From: a phage | DNA: 64,000 nt | NCBI GenBank assembly: GCA_011911785.1 | Contig: GCA_011911785.1_4084.1 | Strand: one strand, 5' to 3' | Part shown: positions 4,674 through 42,464 of the stretch, in pieces | Layout of the letters: each line of letters starts with the position of its first letter | Numbering within the stretch: the first letter of the stretch is position 1 | Position numbers and translations under genes: made by a program | Notes under the pieces: model-generated | Told to the model about the DNA's origin: nothing | Seen by the model: only the letters and a program-made list of their open reading frames with translations | Database searches by the model: none

Positions 4674-5869
4674 TGAATTTTCCTGAAAAGATTTTCGTCG
4701 CAAGACGTTTTGTTAGTGGGGATCAGGTTGACGGATATATTATCGACGCAACTAAAATGCACACTAAAGCATTTGAAACCAAGAAAGAACGTGTTGAGTA
4801 CTGGGCAAGAACCAATAATATGCCGTCACTTATACTCGACAATGAACCGAAAAAAGGTTTTGCTATTGTTCAAAAATTGATTCACAGTGGGCGTGATACC
4901 TATTTTGTTTGTCGTCACCCAGAAGGATTTGAGTTCAATATCACCGCAAACAATATGCTGGACTTAATCACACACAATGATATCGTTAATGGTGTATTCC
5001 AAGATGCTATGTTCTTTAATAATAATCTTGAACTCATCAATGGTAATACAAAAACATTTGCTAAGATGCAAGAGAAGCAAGAAAAAGCTGAAGAACGTAA
5101 AAGCGTTGTTGGTGAGTTGAAAGTTGGTGATGGATTCCTTTATAACAAAAAAGAGTACTACTATTGTGGTCGAGTTCATGCTCTTTGTTTGAAGAAAACT
5201 AAAGAATTCTCTTTACCTAACAAAAGTTCTTTCTATCATATGGTGTATTGTATCGCTGATGGTACATATGGTGTATGTGCAAGCCTTGACCGTTACGAAT
5301 TAACACCCAGAGCACTCCATAACGTTAAAACGACAATGGAAGCTGAAATTGTTAAAGCAAATGCGTATTTCAATACGTACCGAATGCGAACTGAGAACGC
5401 ATTAGGTGAATGCAATAGACCAGTACTGATCAGTACTAAATCATTTAAAAGTACTGATATGAAAGTAAAATACACTGAAATCACTAAAGACGTTCTTGTT
5501 AATGGTCGTTTCAATGAAAACGTATTATTCATGACTGAACAGAATGGTCAAAAATATCGTGTATTCTTTGGTATTTCAGATAACAACAGCAGAAATTCCT
5601 ATGGATATTATCGCCATGATTATTCTATAGCGTACAAGGGTGATTTTGAAAAATACTGCGGATACCCAGTGGAAGTTGATGCGAATGGTGTAATGTCAAT
5701 GGATGTTGATATCGATAAACATACATCTTTCAATACATGGCGTGGTTATAATTCACCTTTCTATCCACCGACCAAACGATATAGTAATAATTCATCAGAA
5801 TCTAATAAAAAAACTATGGTTCATATTAGCACTGACTGTCCTATTTTTTATGGAACCTATTATCTATAA
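4673..5869 (+). CDS. hypothetical protein
   Basis: Start moved to in-frame ATG at 4673, which forms an ATGA overlap with the upstream stop; no motif recognised. Confidence 0.45.
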   Translation: MNFPEKIFVARRFVSGDQVDGYIIDATKMHTKAFETKKERVEYWARTNNMPSLILDNEPKKGFAIVQKLIHSGRDTYFVCRHPEGFEFNITANNMLDLITHNDIVNGVFQDAMFFNNNLELINGNTKTFAKMQEKQEKAEERKSVVGELKVGDGFLYNKKEYYYCGRVHALCLKKTKEFSLPNKSSFYHMVYCIADGTYGVCASLDRYELTPRALHNVKTTMEAEIVKANAYFNTYRMRTENALGECNRPVLISTKSFKSTDMKVKYTEITKDVLVNGRFNENVLFMTEQNGQKYRVFFGISDNNSRNSYGYYRHDYSIAYKGDFEKYCGYPVEVDANGVMSMDVDIDKHTSFNTWRGYNSPFYPPTKRYSNNSSESNKKTMVHISTDCPIFYGTYYL

Positions 5870-11374: not shown

Positions 11375-11896
11375 ATGAACTATAATCAATTATCACAAGA
11401 AGATACTGATATTTGGCTAAAGAACGTAAACAATACGTTGGAACTTGTGCGACAATGTATTTCGGAAGCTGACCGTGTATCAGACGAAGCTAAAGAAAAA
11501 ACATACAAACACTTTCACCGTAATATCTTCATGAAAATTTATGCACTTACTATGTATAATATGTACAAACCATCTGATATTTTTATTGGGTTGTATAGTG
11601 GGGCGATGTTCACATTAGGTGGGATTTTTTCAGATACTGGTCGCACATTAGAACAAAACGAAAAAGATGTTATCGTGGCAGTTGATAAGATTATGAATAA
11701 GGAAGTAGATTTCATTCTGGAAATCGTTCGTTGCTGGAATGTTTATAGCTCAAAACCATTTGACATTACACAGAAAGATATAGTAGACTATATGCGTATT
11801 TTACGTACACATCAGATCTGTAAAGAACTATTAACCAATTTAGGGACATATGATGAAACATACAACGTGGTTGAAGATAGCCAGTGTCGTTGCTGA
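11375..11896 (+). CDS. hypothetical protein
   Basis: 173-aa ORF. Confidence 0.4.
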   Translation: MNYNQLSQEDTDIWLKNVNNTLELVRQCISEADRVSDEAKEKTYKHFHRNIFMKIYALTMYNMYKPSDIFIGLYSGAMFTLGGIFSDTGRTLEQNEKDVIVAVDKIMNKEVDFILEIVRCWNVYSSKPFDITQKDIVDYMRILRTHQICKELLTNLGTYDETYNVVEDSQCRC

Positions 11897-12332
11897 GGAA
11901 AGTAAGTGTCTTTCCCAGAAAGTAGGTTGTGTTATTGTAAAGAATAACCGAGTATTGAGTACTGGATATAACGGTACACCATCAAAGCAACCTAACTGTT
12001 GTGATGTTAATAAACATCTCGTAAACAATGGTCAGTTTCAGGATTGGATTGATGAAGATGCAAAACACTTACATCACGAGTGGAGCAACATTCATGAGAT
12101 CCATGCGGAAATGAATGCATTACTATATAGTTCACCACAAGAACGTCAGGGTGCAACACTTTACACCACACTCCAACCGTGCTATACTTGTTCTAAGTTA
12201 ATCGCTGGTAGTGGTATTTCTCGTGTAATTTACGAAAAATCGTATCCTCGCACTCCACCAGAAGCTATTAAAGTACTGGAAGATGCTGGGATTATTGTAA
12301 ATTGTATCTATGATAATGGACTCAATAAATGA
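11850..12332 (+). CDS. cd: dCMP deaminase
   Basis: Zinc-deaminase motifs HAEMNA and PCYTCS; N-terminus VGCVIVKNNRVLSTGYNGTP matches my recollection of T4 cd. Confidence 0.9.
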   Translation: MMKHTTWLKIASVVAEESKCLSQKVGCVIVKNNRVLSTGYNGTPSKQPNCCDVNKHLVNNGQFQDWIDEDAKHLHHEWSNIHEIHAEMNALLYSSPQERQGATLYTTLQPCYTCSKLIAGSGISRVIYEKSYPRTPPEAIKVLEDAGIIVNCIYDNGLNK

Positions 12333-37456: not shown

Positions 37457-38074
37457 ATGACTACATCACAAAAGTACTGGTGGATTTTGGGACACCCTGA
37501 ATTTATCAATAAAGACTACGTTGATGCTCGCATTGATGTTGAGCCACACGATGTATGTCCTATCACCAATCGTATTGAAGATTATCCGGTACTGAATACA
37601 AAAACACAGTACTGGATCGAAATGCTAACTCCGTTTTTCGATGAAGACGAAGGGAAGTTCGTTCGTGGACATGAGTACGAGTTGGATTGTGGTGGTGATA
37701 CATATGAAGAAGCAATTGATAATTTATACACCAAGATCCTAGAAAAGTACGGTGATTACACACAAGAAGAAGCGGAAGCTAAGTATGATGCTGTACATCA
37801 GCGTGTAGTGACGAAAAGTGCTTTTCCTTCATCAATGTTCCAACCAGAAGAACTTCGTAACACATGGGAGAACTCAAAATTATCTGAAATTGAACTTGAT
37901 TATATTCCAGGTGATATTGAAAACATTAAAGGTACAATAAAAGCCTTGAAAGAATTCCTCAAAACTTGTACAATAGAAGAACAAGAAGAGGCAAACAAAC
38001 ATTTACAATCCGAGGAATGTAAACTATGGGTGCTTGAGGAATCACTTAGAAAAGGCATAGACTACAACATATGA
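37457..38074 (+). CDS. hypothetical acidic protein
   Basis: 205-aa ORF. Confidence 0.4.
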   Translation: MTTSQKYWWILGHPEFINKDYVDARIDVEPHDVCPITNRIEDYPVLNTKTQYWIEMLTPFFDEDEGKFVRGHEYELDCGGDTYEEAIDNLYTKILEKYGDYTQEEAEAKYDAVHQRVVTKSAFPSSMFQPEELRNTWENSKLSEIELDYIPGDIENIKGTIKALKEFLKTCTIEEQEEANKHLQSEECKLWVLEESLRKGIDYNI

Positions 38075-38439
38075 ACCCGAAATTGCTTAAACTGGTAGAA
38101 GAACTCCGTGAGATGCCGCCGATTGAACAAGTTGGCAATTACAAACGGTATAGAGTAATTGCTCGTGCACTGGATAAGAAAGGTCGAGTACTGGCTACTC
38201 GTACCAACTCTTACACACAGACTCACCCTAAGCAGAAAGGCTTTGCAATTCGTGCGGGTCGCCCTCAAGGGGAATTTTTACACGCTGAAATTTCGTGTCT
38301 TCTTGCTGCTCGTGCTGAAGTACATACTCTTCTTATCGCTCGTGTAAGTAAAGATGGAATTCCAGTTCCAGCAAAACCTTGTGAGATTTGTACATTAGCA
38401 ATTCAGGAGTACGGGGTAAAAGAGATTATCCATACATGA
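38071..38439 (+). CDS. CDA-fold zinc-dependent deaminase (TadA / cytidine deaminase-like)
   Basis: HAEISCLLAA and PCEICTL, the H[AC]E ... PCxxC deaminase signature, in a 122-aa protein. Confidence 0.55.
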   Translation: MNPKLLKLVEELREMPPIEQVGNYKRYRVIARALDKKGRVLATRTNSYTQTHPKQKGFAIRAGRPQGEFLHAEISCLLAARAEVHTLLIARVSKDGIPVPAKPCEICTLAIQEYGVKEIIHT

Positions 38440-38657
38440 AAATTGAACGATATCAGCACCATACTGTACTGTTTGGTGAATCAATAATGTACTATTATAT
38501 TTTTGAGCCAAAACATTCGTTACAAATAACTATATACGAAAATGGTAAATTTAAAGATACCAATTTCCCATTACATGAATTGGCATTATATTCCAGTACT
38601 GATCACTTTAAGCATTTAGTATTTGTATATTGTATTCCAAATGAAAACGAGGAATAA
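38436..38657 (+). CDS. hypothetical protein
   Basis: ATGA overlap with upstream stop. Confidence 0.35.
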   Translation: MKIERYQHHTVLFGESIMYYYIFEPKHSLQITIYENGKFKDTNFPLHELALYSSTDHFKHLVFVYCIPNENEE

Positions 38658-39503: not shown

Positions 39504-41309
39504 ATGCAAATAGATAAATTATATACGGACGTAACTAACTTCCTCAACCAGAGTAACGCTGATTTAACAAACGAAAATGCAAATAAAGACGCTAAATGTG
39601 TTAATACACATCGTGATTTATTGGCAGGTATTCTTTCTAAACATTATTCCCAAGATGTGATTCCTGATGAATTGATGAAGTGGCATAATGAAGGTTACGG
39701 TCATATTCATGATTTAGACTATTACATTAGCCCATTAACAAACTGTTGTTTAGTTAATTATCCTGATATGCTTGCTAATGGCTTCATGATTGGTTGTGCC
39801 AAGATTGAAGAACCAAAAAGCTTTGGGGTAGCTTGTACAGTACTAACACAGATTGTTCAGGCTGTGGCAAGTTCACAGTACGGTGGTCAGTCGTTGGCTC
39901 ACATTGACACTGGCCTTGCACCATATGTACAAAAGTCATGGGATAAACTTCTAGAAAAACAAAAGAAATACAATCTTAGTACTGAATTCATCGAAGATGA
40001 GTTGCGTAAGGAAGTTTATGACGGTTGTCAAACAATTCTATATCAAACAAACTCAATGATCAGTACTAATGGTCAGGCTGCGTTCATTTCTTTGAGTTTA
40101 GGATTAGGTACATCTAAATTTGAAAAACTAATCACTGAACAATATTTGAAAGTACATGAAAATGGACTAGGTAAAGATAAGATTACTCCAGTATTTCCTA
40201 AAGTAATATTCTTTCTTCAGGATGGAATTAATATGAACAGTACTGATTGTAATTATGACTTAAAACAATTAGCTATGCGTTGTGCAGCTAAACGCATCTA
40301 TCCTGATTTTGTATCAGTACCTTTGAATCAAAAAGTTACTGGAAGCACAACTATTCCTGTTACTCCTATGGGATGCAGAAGTTTCTTAGGGAAATGGGAA
40401 AATACACAAGGAGAAGAAAAATACAATGGTAGATTCAACCTTGGCGTTGTGTCTATCAACTTACCACTAATTGCTCTTGAGAGTGAGTCTGATGGTGATT
40501 TCTTTGATAAGATTGACGAGCACATGAATATTGCTTACAGAGCACAGATGAACCGTGTAGAACGTTTAAAAGGTACAAAGGCAAAACAAAACCCTATACT
40601 TTTCGCTGAAGGTGCGATTGCACGTCTTGATCCTGAAGACACTATTGACCATTTATTTTATAATGGTTATGCTAGTATCAGTATTGGTTATGTTGGGTTA
40701 TCTGAGTGTTCAGAGATCCTCACTGGTTCAATTAGTAAAGAGTTCTGTATGAGTATTTTGAACTACATGAAAGCAAAATGTGATGAATTCAAAAAAGAGA
40801 GTAACATTGCATTTAGTCTTTACGGTACACCAGCAGAATCACTATGTTATAAATTTGCACGTTGTATTGAGGCAAAACATCCTTCAGTACTGAAACGTGA
40901 CTTTATCACTAACTCATTCCATCAACCAGTATGGGTTGAAAGTACACCTTTTGCTAAATGGGATTATGAGGAAAACTTTGCTTATCTAAGCAATGGTGGT
41001 AATATTAGCTATGTCGAAACACCAAATCTAGCTAATAATATACAAGCACTTGAAACATTAATAAATTTTGCTTATACTAAAATTCCATATTTTGGTATTA
41101 ATCAGAAGGTCGATAAGTGTTTTGAATGTGATTTTGAGGGTGAATTTAGTGTAGATAAAAATGGTTTCCATTGTCCGGTATGTGACAACCGCAATGAACG
41201 CACAATGTCGGTTATTCGCAGAGTATCAGGATATCTTAGTGCACCAAATAGTCGCCCGTTCAATAAAGGTAAACAAGCTGAAGTTATTCAACGTATACAA
41301 CACATGTAA
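39504..41309 (+). CDS. nrdD: anaerobic ribonucleoside-triphosphate reductase
   Basis: 601 aa; C-terminal zinc ribbon (CFECDF ... CPVCDN) followed by glycyl-radical motif RRVSGYL; adjacent nrdG. Confidence 0.9.
   Translation: MQIDKLYTDVTNFLNQSNADLTNENANKDAKCVNTHRDLLAGILSKHYSQDVIPDELMKWHNEGYGHIHDLDYYISPLTNCCLVNYPDMLANGFMIGCAKIEEPKSFGVACTVLTQIVQAVASSQYGGQSLAHIDTGLAPYVQKSWDKLLEKQKKYNLSTEFIEDELRKEVYDGCQTILYQTNSMISTNGQAAFISLSLGLGTSKFEKLITEQYLKVHENGLGKDKITPVFPKVIFFLQDGINMNSTDCNYDLKQLAMRCAAKRIYPDFVSVPLNQKVTGSTTIPVTPMGCRSFLGKWENTQGEEKYNGRFNLGVVSINLPLIALESESDGDFFDKIDEHMNIAYRAQMNRVERLKGTKAKQNPILFAEGAIARLDPEDTIDHLFYNGYASISIGYVGLSECSEILTGSISKEFCMSILNYMKAKCDEFKKESNIAFSLYGTPAESLCYKFARCIEAKHPSVLKRDFITNSFHQPVWVESTPFAKWDYEENFAYLSNGGNISYVETPNLANNIQALETLINFAYTKIPYFGINQKVDKCFECDFEGEFSVDKNGFHCPVCDNRNERTMSVIRRVSGYLSAPNSRPFNKGKQAEVIQRIQHM
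40883..40894. repeat. 12-bp palindrome TTCAGTACTGAA
   Basis: Exact 12-mer inside nrdD. Confidence 0.6.
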
Positions 41310-41318
41310 GGAGATATT

Positions 41319-41681
41319 ATGTCAATTCAAGGTAAACAAGTCATGTCTGGTGAGCACCGTGGAACTATCATGCTAATAGAAAATGATATTGCACGTATTA
41401 TTGTATCAAAGACCTTTTCCGAAGATGATGAAGTACTTTTGAGTACTTTTGATGGTGAGGTACTGCGTGATGTGGAAATTCAACACGCACCGAATATTGA
41501 AGGTGGTCAGCACTTGAATGTAAATGTTCTATCTAAAGAACAACTAATTGATGCACAAAATAATCCAGAAAAGTATCCGCAACTTACAATTCGTGTTAGT
41601 GGTTATGCAGTTCGTTTCAATTCACTAACAAAAGAACAACAAGATGATGTAATCAATCGTACTTTTACTAAAGGTCTATGA
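41319..41681 (+). CDS. grcA: autonomous glycyl-radical cofactor (GrcA/YfiD-like)
   Basis: C-terminus [42 protein letters not shown] closely matches my recollection of E. coli GrcA. Confidence 0.85.
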
Positions 41682-42013
41682 TGGACTTAAAACCAATTGT
41701 AGTTAACAAATATAAAGAACCATATGATGTGTATATAGGTCGTGGGTCCAAATGGGGAAATCCATTTACCCACATTAATGACAAACAAACAAAGGCAGAG
41801 TTTATAGTTCCGACACGAGAAGAGTCGATTGAGAAGTTCAGAGAGTATCTTATCCAAAGAATTGAAAATGGTGAGGTTACTATCGAAGAACTACTTGAAT
41901 TGGCTGGGAAGCGTCTTGGGTGCTTTTGTAAGCCAAAATCATGTCATGGTGATGTTCTTGTAGAAATAGTGAGTGCAATATTAGATGAATTACCAGACGA
42001 TAATCAAGGATGA
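41678..42013 (+). CDS. conserved hypothetical protein (DUF4326-like)
   Basis: Motif [10 protein letters not shown] plus C-terminal [11 protein letters not shown]; family assignment is from memory and uncertain. Confidence 0.4.
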
Positions 42014-42464
42014 TTTAGTTAATGGGGAGGGAGTTAGATGCTCCCTTTTTGTTTCAGGGTGTAGCCACGGATGTGAAGAATGCTTCAACGAAAAAGCATG
42101 GGATTATCGCAGTGGTTCAGAATTCAGTACTGAAACAGTTGAAATCATCCTGAATGAACTTAACAAGCCATATGTACAAGGATTATCCCTTTTAGGTGGT
42201 GATCCATTGATGCCAAAGAATATCAGTACTGTTATTGAGTTATGTAAAGTAGTAAAAGAAAAATATCCAAATAAAGATATTTGGTGCTGGAGTGGTTATA
42301 CTTTAGAGGAAATAATAAATAATCATGCCTCCGTAATACTAGAGTACATTGATGTATTAGTTGATGGTAAATTTATTCTTGAAGAAAAGAATTTAGAATT
42401 ACCATTTAGAGGCTCTAATAATCAACGTATTCTTCGTAAAGGAGTAGATTATGCGTTATCTTGA
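41985..42464 (+). CDS. nrdG: anaerobic ribonucleotide reductase activating protein (radical SAM)
   Basis: N-terminus [35 protein letters not shown] matches the NrdG signature. Confidence 0.9.
   Translation: MNYQTIIKDDLVNGEGVRCSLFVSGCSHGCEECFNEKAWDYRSGSEFSTETVEIILNELNKPYVQGLSLLGGDPLMPKNISTVIELCKVVKEKYPNKDIWCWSGYTLEEIINNHASVILEYIDVLVDGKFILEEKNLELPFRGSNNQRILRKGVDYALS
42123..42134. repeat. 12-bp palindrome TTCAGTACTGAA
   Basis: Exact 12-mer inside nrdG, preceded by AA (aattcagtactgaa). Confidence 0.6.

What the first reader, a model, noticed from the sequence alone, without database searches (positions are those of the whole stretch)
38071..38439. Second, minimal CDA-fold deaminase besides dCMP deaminase
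A 122-aa protein with HAEISCLLAA and PCEICTL zinc-deaminase motifs, separate from the cd-like dCMP deaminase at 11850. Small deaminases of this type include tRNA adenosine deaminases and nucleotide or nucleic-acid editing enzymes; in a phage it could act on nucleotides, tRNA, or DNA or RNA bases.
Basis: partly seen in the sequence, partly recalled or inferred. Interest (0 to 1): 0.45.

Follow-up and report, generated by a model that had tools for sequence, protein, structure and literature searches.

The report
Minimal phage zinc deaminase, dCMP-deaminase relative
This jumbo coliphage encodes, besides an ordinary dCMP deaminase, a 122-residue stripped-down zinc deaminase from a large, uncharacterised phage family whose genes often sit next to thymidine-synthesis genes, so it probably helps turn cytosine nucleotides into thymine precursors.

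Summary
ORF 38071-38439 (+) encodes a 122-aa protein with H71-A-E73 and P103-C104-x-x-C107. It is a different gene from the canonical dCMP deaminase at 11850-12332.

The window is an Asteriusvirus jumbo coliphage, 98.7% identical to phage A4. Public records already label this gene "dCMP deaminase" or "hypothetical".

The protein belongs to a large, almost phage-only family of 100-140-aa deaminases that includes phiKZ ORF260. I found 872 clusters at E<1e-10 and 507 IMG/VR loci. The zinc ligands and the catalytic Glu are invariant.

The nearest relatives are dCMP deaminases (hhalign 98.5%, 21% identity). However, the protein ends right after strand beta4, so it has no alpha4/beta5. It also lacks the G(Y/W)N(A/G) allosteric motif and the HAExNA Asn, carries a 10-residue insert, and is very basic (pI 9.7).

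Gene context points to thymidylate supply:
- mini-dCD-ThyX operons recur in unrelated phages.
- RNR genes lie nearby in several lineages.
- In Aeromonas phage 4L372D it is the only CDA-fold deaminase.

Most likely it is an unregulated cytosine-nucleotide deaminase; which phosphorylation state it acts on is unknown. A polynucleotide or nucleoside substrate is not excluded, and a TadA role has no support. This is a new variant of a known kind, of moderate interest.

The parts
38071..38439 (+). Minimal CDA-fold zinc deaminase: 122 aa, 13.7 kDa, pI 9.67. It is the orthologue of A4_486, 121Q gp490, RaK2 gp518 and GAP32_134, and a relative of phiKZ ORF260.
   Evidence: ORF; PF00383 at 30 bits; AF2 pLDDT 91.6 with a1-b1-b2-insert helix-a2-b3-a3-b4 and nothing after b4; annotation in relatives; pI and mass.
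38281..38289 (+). H71-A72-E73: first zinc ligand and catalytic proton-shuttle Glu, at the start of helix a2.
   Evidence: H in 157/158, A in 152/158 and E in 158/158 family members; invariant in A1, A2 and A3.
38377..38391 (+). P103-C104-E-I-C107: second and third zinc ligands, at the start of helix a3.
   Evidence: P in 157/158, C104 in 158/158 and C107 in 158/158.
38206..38235 (+). Family signature loop N46-S-Y-x-(K/Q)-T-H52-P53-x-Q55 between b2 and a2. It occupies the position of the G(Y/W)N(A/G) allosteric motif region of dCMP deaminases, but here it reads R-T-N-S-Y.
   Evidence: Conservation counts: N46 156/158, Y48 120, K50 137, T51 120, H52 141, P53 144, Q55 141. The motif definition comes from PMC12088426.
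38341..38376 (+). R91 (155/158) at the end of b3, followed by a roughly 10-residue insert (SKDGIPVPAK, with G96 and A101 conserved) before PCxxC. Canonical dCMP deaminases lack this insert.
   Evidence: Conservation; the hhalign gap opposite the canonical dCDs; DSSP of the model.
37457..38074 (+). Upstream 205-aa protein of unknown function (phrog_16370). Its stop codon overlaps the deaminase start (ATGA). This pairing is conserved across Rak2-like jumbo phages.
11850..12332 (+). Canonical dCMP deaminase (160 aa, pI 7.0) with GYNG, HAEMNAL, PCYTC and the C-terminal a4/b5 segment. It is the pathway companion of the minimal enzyme, not part of it.
   Evidence: It is 91% identical to Sharanji WNN14772.1.
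39504..42464 (+). Nucleotide-metabolism context about 1 kb downstream: NrdD (39504-41309), a stand-alone glycyl-radical domain ORF (41319-41681), DUF4326 (41678-42013) and NrdG (41985-42464).
   Evidence: Annotation of A4 and 121Q; Pfam. The deaminase-to-NrdD synteny is kept in RaK2, GAP32 and XbC2.

Best explanation
The ORF encodes a catalytically competent, zinc-dependent hydrolytic deaminase. It belongs to a distinct, essentially phage-restricted 'minimal' clade that branched from dCMP deaminases.

Shown: the zinc site and the proton-shuttle Glu are intact (H71, C104, C107, E73). The fold is a CDA core cut down to four strands. The C-terminal alpha4-beta5 unit and the dCTP/dTTP allosteric motif of canonical dCMP deaminases are missing.

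Inferred: the enzyme deaminates a free cytosine (deoxy)nucleotide, either dCMP or a more highly phosphorylated form such as dCTP or dCDP, to the uracil nucleotide. This feeds dUMP into phage thymidylate synthesis for an AT-rich genome (34.8% G+C). It would do so constitutively, without dTTP feedback, working beside the regulated canonical dCMP deaminase where one is present and replacing it where none is. The conserved basic residues around the pocket (K50 in the family, H52, R91, K102) would hold the phosphate(s). The truncated sheet edge probably requires oligomerisation. Translation is coupled to an upstream 205-aa protein of unknown role.
For: 1. Catalytic residues are invariant in 158 homologues, and the fold is confidently predicted.
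2. The closest characterised relatives by profile are dCMP deaminases: S-TIM5 4p9c at E 3.8e-11, S. mutans 2hvv at 1.5e-8, and hhalign against phage dCDs at 98.5% probability, E 1.7e-15.
3. The b2-a2 spacer (N46 to H71, 25 residues) aligns over its full length with the corresponding loop of the S-TIM5 and S. mutans dCMP deaminases, but needs a 14-residue gap against the M. capricolum tRNA-specific deaminase 6l2l.
4. Gene context recurs in independent lineages. The arrangement mini-dCD-ThyX occurs in L072 and L077, and mini-dCD with an overlapping or 8-nt junction occurs in L033, L043-45 and L077. In DC31 the mini lies two genes from dCD and 4.5 kb from ThyX. A canonical dCD lies within 10 kb in 7 of 30 sequence clusters and immediately downstream in 4 of them.
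5. RNR genes lie nearby. NrdD/NrdG sit about 1 kb downstream in all Rak2-like phages, with a thymidylate kinase in between in XbC2. NrdA/B sit 4-5 kb away in marine contigs.
6. In the complete genome of Aeromonas phage 4L372D (35% G+C) the mini is the only CDA-fold deaminase, alongside thymidylate synthase, dUTPase and RNR.
7. There is precedent for plastic phosphorylation-state specificity in dCD-like enzymes: PBCV-1 bi-DCD, XP-12 and CDADC1 (PMC12088426), and mSCD-B5 (bioRxiv 10.1101/2024.12.05.627091).
Against: There is no biochemical evidence for any family member; I found no paper on it.

Defining dCMP-deaminase features are absent:
- The G(Y/W)N(A/G) motif reads R-T-N-S here.
- The Asn of HAExNA is A, S or D in the family.
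- alpha4/beta5 is missing.

The phage already has a canonical dCD, and phiKZ relatives list a Dcd-type dCTP deaminase (PMC5468394). Plain redundancy therefore needs explaining.

The family is unusually basic (median pI 9.66, net charge +9) and the pocket is open at the C-terminus. Both features would also suit a nucleic-acid substrate.

Confidence: 0.55

Rival explanations
1. It is a polynucleotide deaminase. The open, basic, lid-less active site would accept a flipped-out base of ssDNA, mRNA or tRNA, for example to edit host or phage RNA or to damage host DNA.
Against: Profile similarity is best to mononucleotide dCMP deaminases. The repeated operon linkage is to dCD and ThyX, not to RNA-processing genes. 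PADLOC and toxin-type deaminase models do not hit. Foldseek hits to the DNA deaminases DddA and SsdA are weak (E 0.1 or worse). tRNA proximity is common in large phages and shows no specific anticodon pattern.
Confidence: 0.18
2. It is a nucleoside or other small-molecule deaminase built like the homotetrameric cytidine or blasticidin-S deaminases. Neighbouring subunits would complete the active site, and it would deaminate (deoxy)cytidine for salvage through thymidine kinase.
For: Its size matches that class. Foldseek's best matches are BSD 1wn5, M. smegmatis CDA 3mpz, yeast CDD1 and mouse CDA (TMq 0.61). The b3-turn-extended segment-PCxxC layout, and the short hairpin-like tail of the longer family members, resemble T-CDA; that comparison rests on my own knowledge. 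RaK2-type phages encode a thymidine kinase (PMC3622015).
Against: TIGR01354 scores only 14 bits against a cut-off of 114. The PCGxCRQ and NxE ribose-binding motifs are absent (seen in the sequence). The high positive charge and the conserved K/H/R residues near the pocket suggest a phosphorylated ligand. Nucleosides are minor intermediates during lytic infection (general knowledge).
Confidence: 0.15
3. It is a TadA-type tRNA adenosine-34 deaminase, as JGI auto-annotation names several family members.
For: JGI labels some members 'tRNA(Arg) A34 adenosine deaminase TadA'. The HAEI motif resembles TadA. The M. capricolum tRNA deaminase 6l2l is the third-best PDB profile hit, at 1e-7.
Against: No NCBIfam TadA hit. 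The C-terminal helix that TadA uses on tRNA is absent. The b2-a2 loop is dCD-length. Only 1 tRNA-Arg(ACG) occurs among about 120 tRNAs near family members; the Arg tRNAs are mostly UCU. The 'TadA' of phage Sharanji mentioned in the literature is really the canonical dCD orthologue.
Confidence: 0.04
4. It is mainly a non-enzymatic partner subunit that assembles with the canonical dCMP deaminase (in the manner of ADAT3 with ADAT2, or the inactive N-domain of CDADC1) to alter its regulation.
For: The genes are repeatedly adjacent, often with translationally coupled junctions. There is precedent for mixed deaminase-domain rings in CDADC1 (PMC12088426).
Against: The catalytic Glu and all zinc ligands are invariant across hundreds of clusters, unlike ADAT3 or the CDADC1 N-domain. 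The mini occurs without any canonical dCD in Aeromonas phage 4L372D and lies 26 kb from it in this window. It lacks alpha4, which mediates ring contacts in DCTD.
Confidence: 0.05

Closest known systems
Canonical zinc dCMP deaminases (DCTD/Cd/ComEB type): cyanophage S-TIM5 dCD (4p9c), S. mutans dCD (2hvv), T4 Cd (1vq2), and this phage's own enzyme at 11850-12332
   Same: It shares the HAE and PCxxC zinc site and the CDA alpha/beta core. The long b2-a2 loop is of similar length, and an aromatic or His residue ends b4. These are the best profile matches. It also shares genomic linkage with ThyX and RNR genes.
   Different: Identity is only 21%. There is no alpha4/beta5: the last ~27 residues of the canonical profile have no counterpart. 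There is no G(Y/W)N(A/G) allosteric motif and no Asn in HAExNA. It has a 10-residue insert between b3 and PCxxC, its own N-S-Y-x-K-T-H-P-x-Q signature and an invariant Arg after b3. Its pI is 9.7 against 7.0.
dCD-like enzymes that accept other phosphorylation states or polymers: PBCV-1 bi-DCD (7fh4), XP-12 5m-dCTP deaminase, human CDADC1, phage mSCD-B5
   Different: All of these keep the full dCD fold of 140-154 aa or more, with the C-terminal elements. No sequence-specific relationship to them was found beyond the general dCD similarity.
Homotetrameric cytidine deaminase and blasticidin-S deaminase
   Same: Similar size. Best Foldseek hits are 1wn5, 3mpz, 1r5t and 2fr5. There is a loop between b3 and the PCxxC helix. 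Longer family members have a short C-terminal tail compatible with a b4-b5 hairpin (inference).
   Different: TIGR01354 is far below its cut-off. The first ligand is His rather than Cys. There is no PCGxCRQ or NxE ribose motif. The window protein has no b5 at all.
TadA/ADAT2 tRNA adenosine deaminases
   Different: No C-terminal helix, a longer b2-a2 loop, no TadA model hit, and no link to tRNA-Arg(ACG).

Membership tests
CDA superfamily / Pfam PF00383 (dCMP_cyt_deam_1) | H/C-x-E and P-C-x-x-C zinc-binding motifs on consecutive helices of an alpha/beta fold; score above the Pfam gathering threshold. | tested here: met
dCMP deaminase (DCTD, EC 3.5.4.12) | Allosteric dCTP/dTTP site marked by the conserved G(Y/W)N(A/G) motif at the end of b2 (PMC12088426). 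| tested here: not met
   The window protein reads R44-T-N46-S47. The family consensus is G-x-N-S, with no conserved aromatic residue. The canonical dCDs encoded beside family members read GYNG in 9 of 12.
dCMP deaminase (DCTD, EC 3.5.4.12) | Full protomer with C-terminal alpha4-beta5(-alpha5); alpha4 makes the ring contacts of the homohexamer. | tested here: not met
   The protein ends at T122, immediately after b4. hhalign leaves the last ~27 positions of the canonical dCD profile (123-149) unmatched. The oligomeric state itself cannot be tested with these tools.
dCMP deaminase (DCTD, EC 3.5.4.12) | Asn two residues after the catalytic Glu (HAExNA), a substrate-contacting residue of dCDs (role from general knowledge; conservation measured here). 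| tested here: not met
   10 of 12 neighbouring canonical dCDs have N at this position. The window protein has S75, and the family has A (48), S (41) or D (22) of 158.
dCMP deaminase (DCTD, EC 3.5.4.12) | [quoted passage not shown] | not testable with these tools
   Needs an enzyme assay. Only context supports a role in dUMP/dTMP supply.
TadA (tRNA adenosine-34 deaminase) | Match to the TadA equivalog model; C-terminal helix for anticodon-loop binding; presence of the tRNA-Arg(ACG) substrate. | tested here: not met
   No NCBIfam TadA hit at E up to 10. No helix after b4. One tRNA-Arg(ACG) among about 120 tRNAs near family members, and none in the window. Host tRNA-Arg(ACG) as a target cannot be excluded.
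Homotetrameric cytidine deaminase (TIGR01354) | Equivalog model score; C/H-A-E plus PCGxCRQ; b4-b5 C-terminal hairpin. | tested here: not met
   14.4 bits against a cut-off of 113.65. The sequence is PCEICTL. There is no b5. Structural resemblance alone is present.
Minimal phage deaminase clade (phiKZ ORF260 / GAP32_134 / RaK2 gp518 family; not a curated family) | 100-140 aa stand-alone protein; signature N-S-Y-x-K-T-H-P-x-Q ... L-H-A-E ... R-x4-G-x4-A-x-P-C-x-x-C-x-x-A-I ... (Y/H)-(T/S); ends at b4 or b4 plus about 10 residues. | tested here: met
   The window protein has N46, S47, Y48, T51, H52, P53, Q55, L70-HAE, R91, G96, A101, PC..C, A110, I111, H121 and T122. Position 50 is Q rather than K. 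The profile search finds 872 clusters at E<1e-10.

The most novel reading that the evidence does not exclude
The family may be a functionally new class of the smallest natural CDA-fold deaminases (about 100-122 aa, four strands). Its substrate would not be dCMP. One possibility is a triphosphate or other cytosine nucleotide, making it the unregulated half of a two-deaminase module with canonical dCD. The other is single-stranded nucleic acid, which would make it the most compact polynucleotide deaminase scaffold known, and a phage effector that edits RNA or DNA.
Probability: 0.25. Interest if true: 0.65.

Novelty: new variant of a known kind. Interest (0 to 1): 0.42.

Why it matters
If the main reading is right, many large AT-rich lytic phages carry a feedback-insensitive route from cytosine to uracil nucleotides. 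This includes Rak2-like and phiKZ-like jumbo phages, T4-like cyanophages and Pakpunavirus-like phages. The route would operate in addition to, or instead of, the regulated dCMP deaminase, and it would help explain how these phages rebalance dNTP pools away from the host's G+C content.

The finding also shows that the labels 'dCMP deaminase', 'TadA' and 'hypothetical', now applied haphazardly to this family, cover a distinct clade that fails several defining features of both enzymes.

Because these are the shortest CDA-fold proteins with an intact active site, they are attractive for enzymology. If they accept polymers, they could also serve as compact editing domains.

Tried and rejected
1. 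The downstream 73-aa ORF (38436-38657, ATGA overlap) as a split-off C-terminal piece of the deaminase. Rejected: it is absent in RaK2, GAP32 and XbC2.
4. A defence or toxin deaminase link. There are no PADLOC hits, and only weak generic MafB19/Bd3614 matches.
5. Literature on phiKZ gp260, or on a second or truncated dCMP deaminase. Nothing relevant was found. The S-TIM5 structure paper is not held.
6. A 'third' TadA-like deaminase reported for phage Sharanji. It turned out to be the canonical dCD orthologue.
7. The genome-contig scan with the broad alignment failed for lack of a conserved stretch. The narrower alignment found only two MAG contigs.
8. Several distant loci have only small hypothetical neighbours and add nothing.

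Full report
**Observation.** The ORF at 38071-38439 (+) exists exactly as described. It encodes 122 codons plus TGA, with HAEISCLLAA at residues 71-80 and PCEICTL at 103-109. Its ATG overlaps the stop of an upstream 205-aa ORF (ATGA at 38071-38074). Its own stop overlaps the ATG of a 73-aa ORF (ATGA at 38436-38439).

The match is not a chance motif pair:
- Pfam PF00383 scores 30 bits against a gathering cut-off of 25, E 5e-7.
- PHROG 174 ('dCMP deaminase') scores E 5.8e-13.
- No NCBIfam model comes close: TIGR01354 scores 14 bits against a cut-off of 114, and no TadA or ComEB hit appears.

It scores 78 bits on PF00383 and 1.7e-60 on phrog_174, with ComEB and dCTP-deaminase-type NCBIfam models as best hits. 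It carries GYNG, HAEMNAL and PCYTC, and its pI is 7.0. The two proteins show no BLASTP similarity. A six-frame motif scan finds no third CDA-motif ORF in the window.

**Origin and existing annotation.** The window is an Asteriusvirus jumbo coliphage, 98.7% identical to Escherichia phage A4 and about 81% identical to 121Q, PBECO4 and G17. The gene is A4_486 and 121Q gp490, both labelled 'dCMP deaminase'. In RaK2, Sharanji and many other records it is 'hypothetical'. GAP32 and RaK2 note similarity to phiKZ ORF260.

The CBB paper already remarks on 'two CMP/dCMP deaminases' (PMC5259590). The RaK2 paper lists only gp495, the canonical enzyme, as dCMP deaminase (PMC3622015). The 'tRNA-specific adenosine deaminase' reported for phage Sharanji (PMC11895373) is WNN14772.1. 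That protein is 91% identical to the canonical enzyme at 11850, not to this protein.

**The family.**
- A word-indexed search found about 45 close relatives of 120-130 aa, on jumbo-phage-sized contigs where those are long enough to judge, followed by a gap.
- A profile search of 1.84 billion cluster representatives found 872 clusters at E<1e-10. Its 150 best hits are stand-alone proteins of 96-166 aa.
- tblastn finds the family in 196 phage records. These include Rak2-like jumbo phages, 47 Pseudomonas phage records in which all those listed are phiKZ-like jumbo phages (266-283 kb), 57 Synechococcus phage records in which those listed are 176-229-kb cyanophages, Aeromonas phages, and Ralstonia and Limnohabitans phages.
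- 507 IMG/VR loci encode a relative.
- A scan of one genome per bacterial and archaeal species found only two hits, both on short MAG contigs. The search pattern was narrow.

Across 158 members the following positions are conserved:

| Position | Count of 158 |
|---|---|
| H71 | 157 |
| A72 | 152 |
| E73 | 158 |
| P103 | 157 |
| C104 | 158 |
| C107 | 158 |
| N46 | 156 |
| R91 | 155 |

The family signature is N-S-Y-x-K-T-H-P-x-Q ... L-HAE ... R-x4-G-x4-A-x-PCxxC-x-x-A-I ... (Y/H)-(T/S).

Two length classes exist. One ends 15-17 residues after CxxC, like this protein. The other carries about 10 more residues. I read that extra tail as a beta-hairpin strand, but this is an inference.

The family is very basic, with median pI 9.66 and median net charge +9. 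The window protein has pI 9.67 and a mass of 13.7 kDa.

**Structure.** AlphaFold2 with the family alignment gives pLDDT 91.6. The order of elements is a1 (3-14), b1 (28-34), b2 (40-45), an insert helix (53-61), a2 with HAE (72-80), b3 (86-92), a loop with a short bridge, a3 with PCxxC (105-114), and b4 (118-121). The chain ends there. The alpha4-beta5 unit present in dCMP deaminases and TadA, and the b5 of cytidine deaminases, are absent.

**Nearest clade by sequence.** A family profile hits the following PDB sequences best:
- cyanophage S-TIM5 dCMP deaminase, E 3.8e-11
- S. mutans dCD, E 1.5e-8
- the M. capricolum tRNA deaminase, E 1e-7
- T4 and human dCD, about E 1e-6

Profile-profile comparison with 12 canonical dCDs, most of them encoded beside family members, gives 98.5% probability, E 1.7e-15 and 21% identity. 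It exposes a 10-residue insert before PCxxC in the mini and about 27 unmatched C-terminal residues in the canonical enzymes.

PMC12088426 gives the defining DCTD features as a roughly 20-kDa protomer in a homohexamer, HxE plus PCxxC, and a G(Y/W)N(A/G) allosteric motif with alpha4 ring contacts. Measured against these, the mini keeps only the catalytic motifs. It reads R-T-N-S at the allosteric motif, has S75 where 10 of 12 canonical neighbours have Asn (HAExNA), and has no alpha4. It is therefore a relative of dCMP deaminases but not a member in the defined sense.

**Genomic context.** In all Rak2-like genera examined the order is conserved: a roughly 205-230-aa unknown protein, then the mini with overlapping stop and start, then a few small ORFs, then NrdD and NrdG. 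This holds in A4, 121Q, RaK2, GAP32 and XbC2. Mimasviruses add a P-loop kinase or thymidylate kinase in between.

In two marine contigs the mini lies 4-5 kb from NrdA, NrdB and glutaredoxin.

In Limnohabitans phage DC31 it lies two genes upstream of a canonical dCD and 4.5 kb from ThyX.

I analysed 80 IMG/VR loci offline. The 76 with a mini ORF fall into 30 clusters at 60% identity or more.
- A canonical dCD with GYNG and the C-terminal segment lies within 10 kb in 7 clusters.
- It lies immediately downstream on the same strand in 4 clusters. The junction is overlapping or 8 nt in L033, L043-45, L072 and L077.
- If placement were uniform within the 20-kb window, about 6% per cluster would be expected (my arithmetic).

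Pfam shows L077 as mini-dCD-HNH-ThyX and L072 as mini-dCD-ThyX.

Conversely, the complete genome of Aeromonas phage 4L372D (138.7 kb, 35% G+C) has the mini as its only CDA-fold deaminase. That phage also encodes thymidylate synthase, dUTPase and RNR.

Other loci show only small hypothetical early genes.

The window is 34.8% G+C, well below E. coli (general knowledge).

**tRNA hypothesis.** The window has no tRNA gene. tRNAs occur within 10 kb of family members in 27 of 80 loci. However, tRNA-Arg(ACG), the TadA substrate, appears once among about 120 tRNAs, and the Arg tRNAs are mostly UCU. Together with the missing C-terminal helix and the absence of a TadA model hit, this leaves no positive support for a TadA role.

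**Interpretation.**

Shown:
- The zinc-deaminase active site is intact and under strong purifying selection.
- The fold is a truncated CDA core.
- The family descends from the dCMP-deaminase branch.
- The regulatory and C-terminal elements have been lost.
- The gene is repeatedly linked with dCD, ThyX and RNR genes.
- The protein occurs both beside a canonical dCD and as the sole deaminase.

Inferred:
- The substrate is a free cytosine (deoxy)nucleotide.
- The product feeds thymidylate synthesis.
- The enzyme is not feedback-controlled.
- The conserved K50 (family), H52, R91 and K102 bind phosphate.
- The exposed sheet edge is covered by oligomerisation.

The phosphorylation state is open. dCD-like enzymes that use dCTP, 5m-dCTP or even ssDNA are documented, and the strong positive charge would suit a triphosphate as well as a nucleic acid.

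I put 0.55 on the nucleotide-pool reading, 0.18 on a polynucleotide substrate, 0.15 on a nucleoside or other small-molecule CDA-like enzyme, about 0.05 on a non-catalytic partner of dCD, and 0.04 on TadA.

**Novelty and verdict.** The gene is annotated in public records and its existence is noted in genome papers. I found no characterisation of it, and no recognition that it forms a separate minimal clade which fails defining dCD and TadA features and pairs with canonical dCD. I rate it a new variant of a known kind, of moderate interest (0.42). Interest would rise if the substrate proves to be something other than dCMP.

Noticed in passing
window 41319-41681 (+): A stand-alone 120-aa ORF carrying only a glycyl-radical domain (PF01228, 64 bits) sits directly after NrdD and before DUF4326/NrdG. 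A4 calls it 'pyruvate formate-lyase'. 121Q has no ORF of this kind at that position, and RaK2 has a 120-aa 'vs.6' ORF after NrdD. It could be a GrcA-like spare glycyl-radical module for an oxygen-damaged class III RNR.
   Followed up: no
window 37457-38074 (+); L016 3327-3770: The 205-aa protein translationally coupled to the deaminase has a conserved N-terminal domain with invariant H13, N47, W53, E55, H72, D77, G79, G80, E85 and A86, plus a variable helical hairpin. It has no detectable family or fold match. A stand-alone homologue of the N-domain overlaps the start of a dUTPase-family gene in an unrelated contig.
   Followed up: partly
L102 3360-3836 (Sharanji gp491, WNN14772.1); window 11850-12332: The protein published as a 'tRNA-specific adenosine deaminase' of phage Sharanji is 91% identical to the canonical dCMP deaminase of this window (GYNG, HAEMNAL). 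The TadA name appears to be a misannotation. The same TadA/dCD confusion is visible in PAK_P-like Pseudomonas phage records.
   Followed up: yes
L077 10807-11478: An HNH-endonuclease-like ORF is inserted between the canonical dCMP deaminase and ThyX in one mini-dCD-ThyX operon. The related locus L072 lacks it. It looks like a homing-endonuclease insertion.
   Followed up: no
L103/L105 (Aeromonas phage 4L372D: 272-8436, 11627-20314, 135455-138662): The same block of small early genes appears three times in the annotation table, once forward and twice inverted. For example, the 'Sano_07'-like ORF occurs at 5723, 14178 and 138006. This suggests long inverted or terminal repeats, or an assembly artefact.
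   Followed up: no
window 41678-42013 (+): A DUF4326 protein (88 bits) is wedged between the glycyl-radical ORF and NrdG and overlaps both. It is conserved in A4 and 121Q, and its function is unknown.
   Followed up: no
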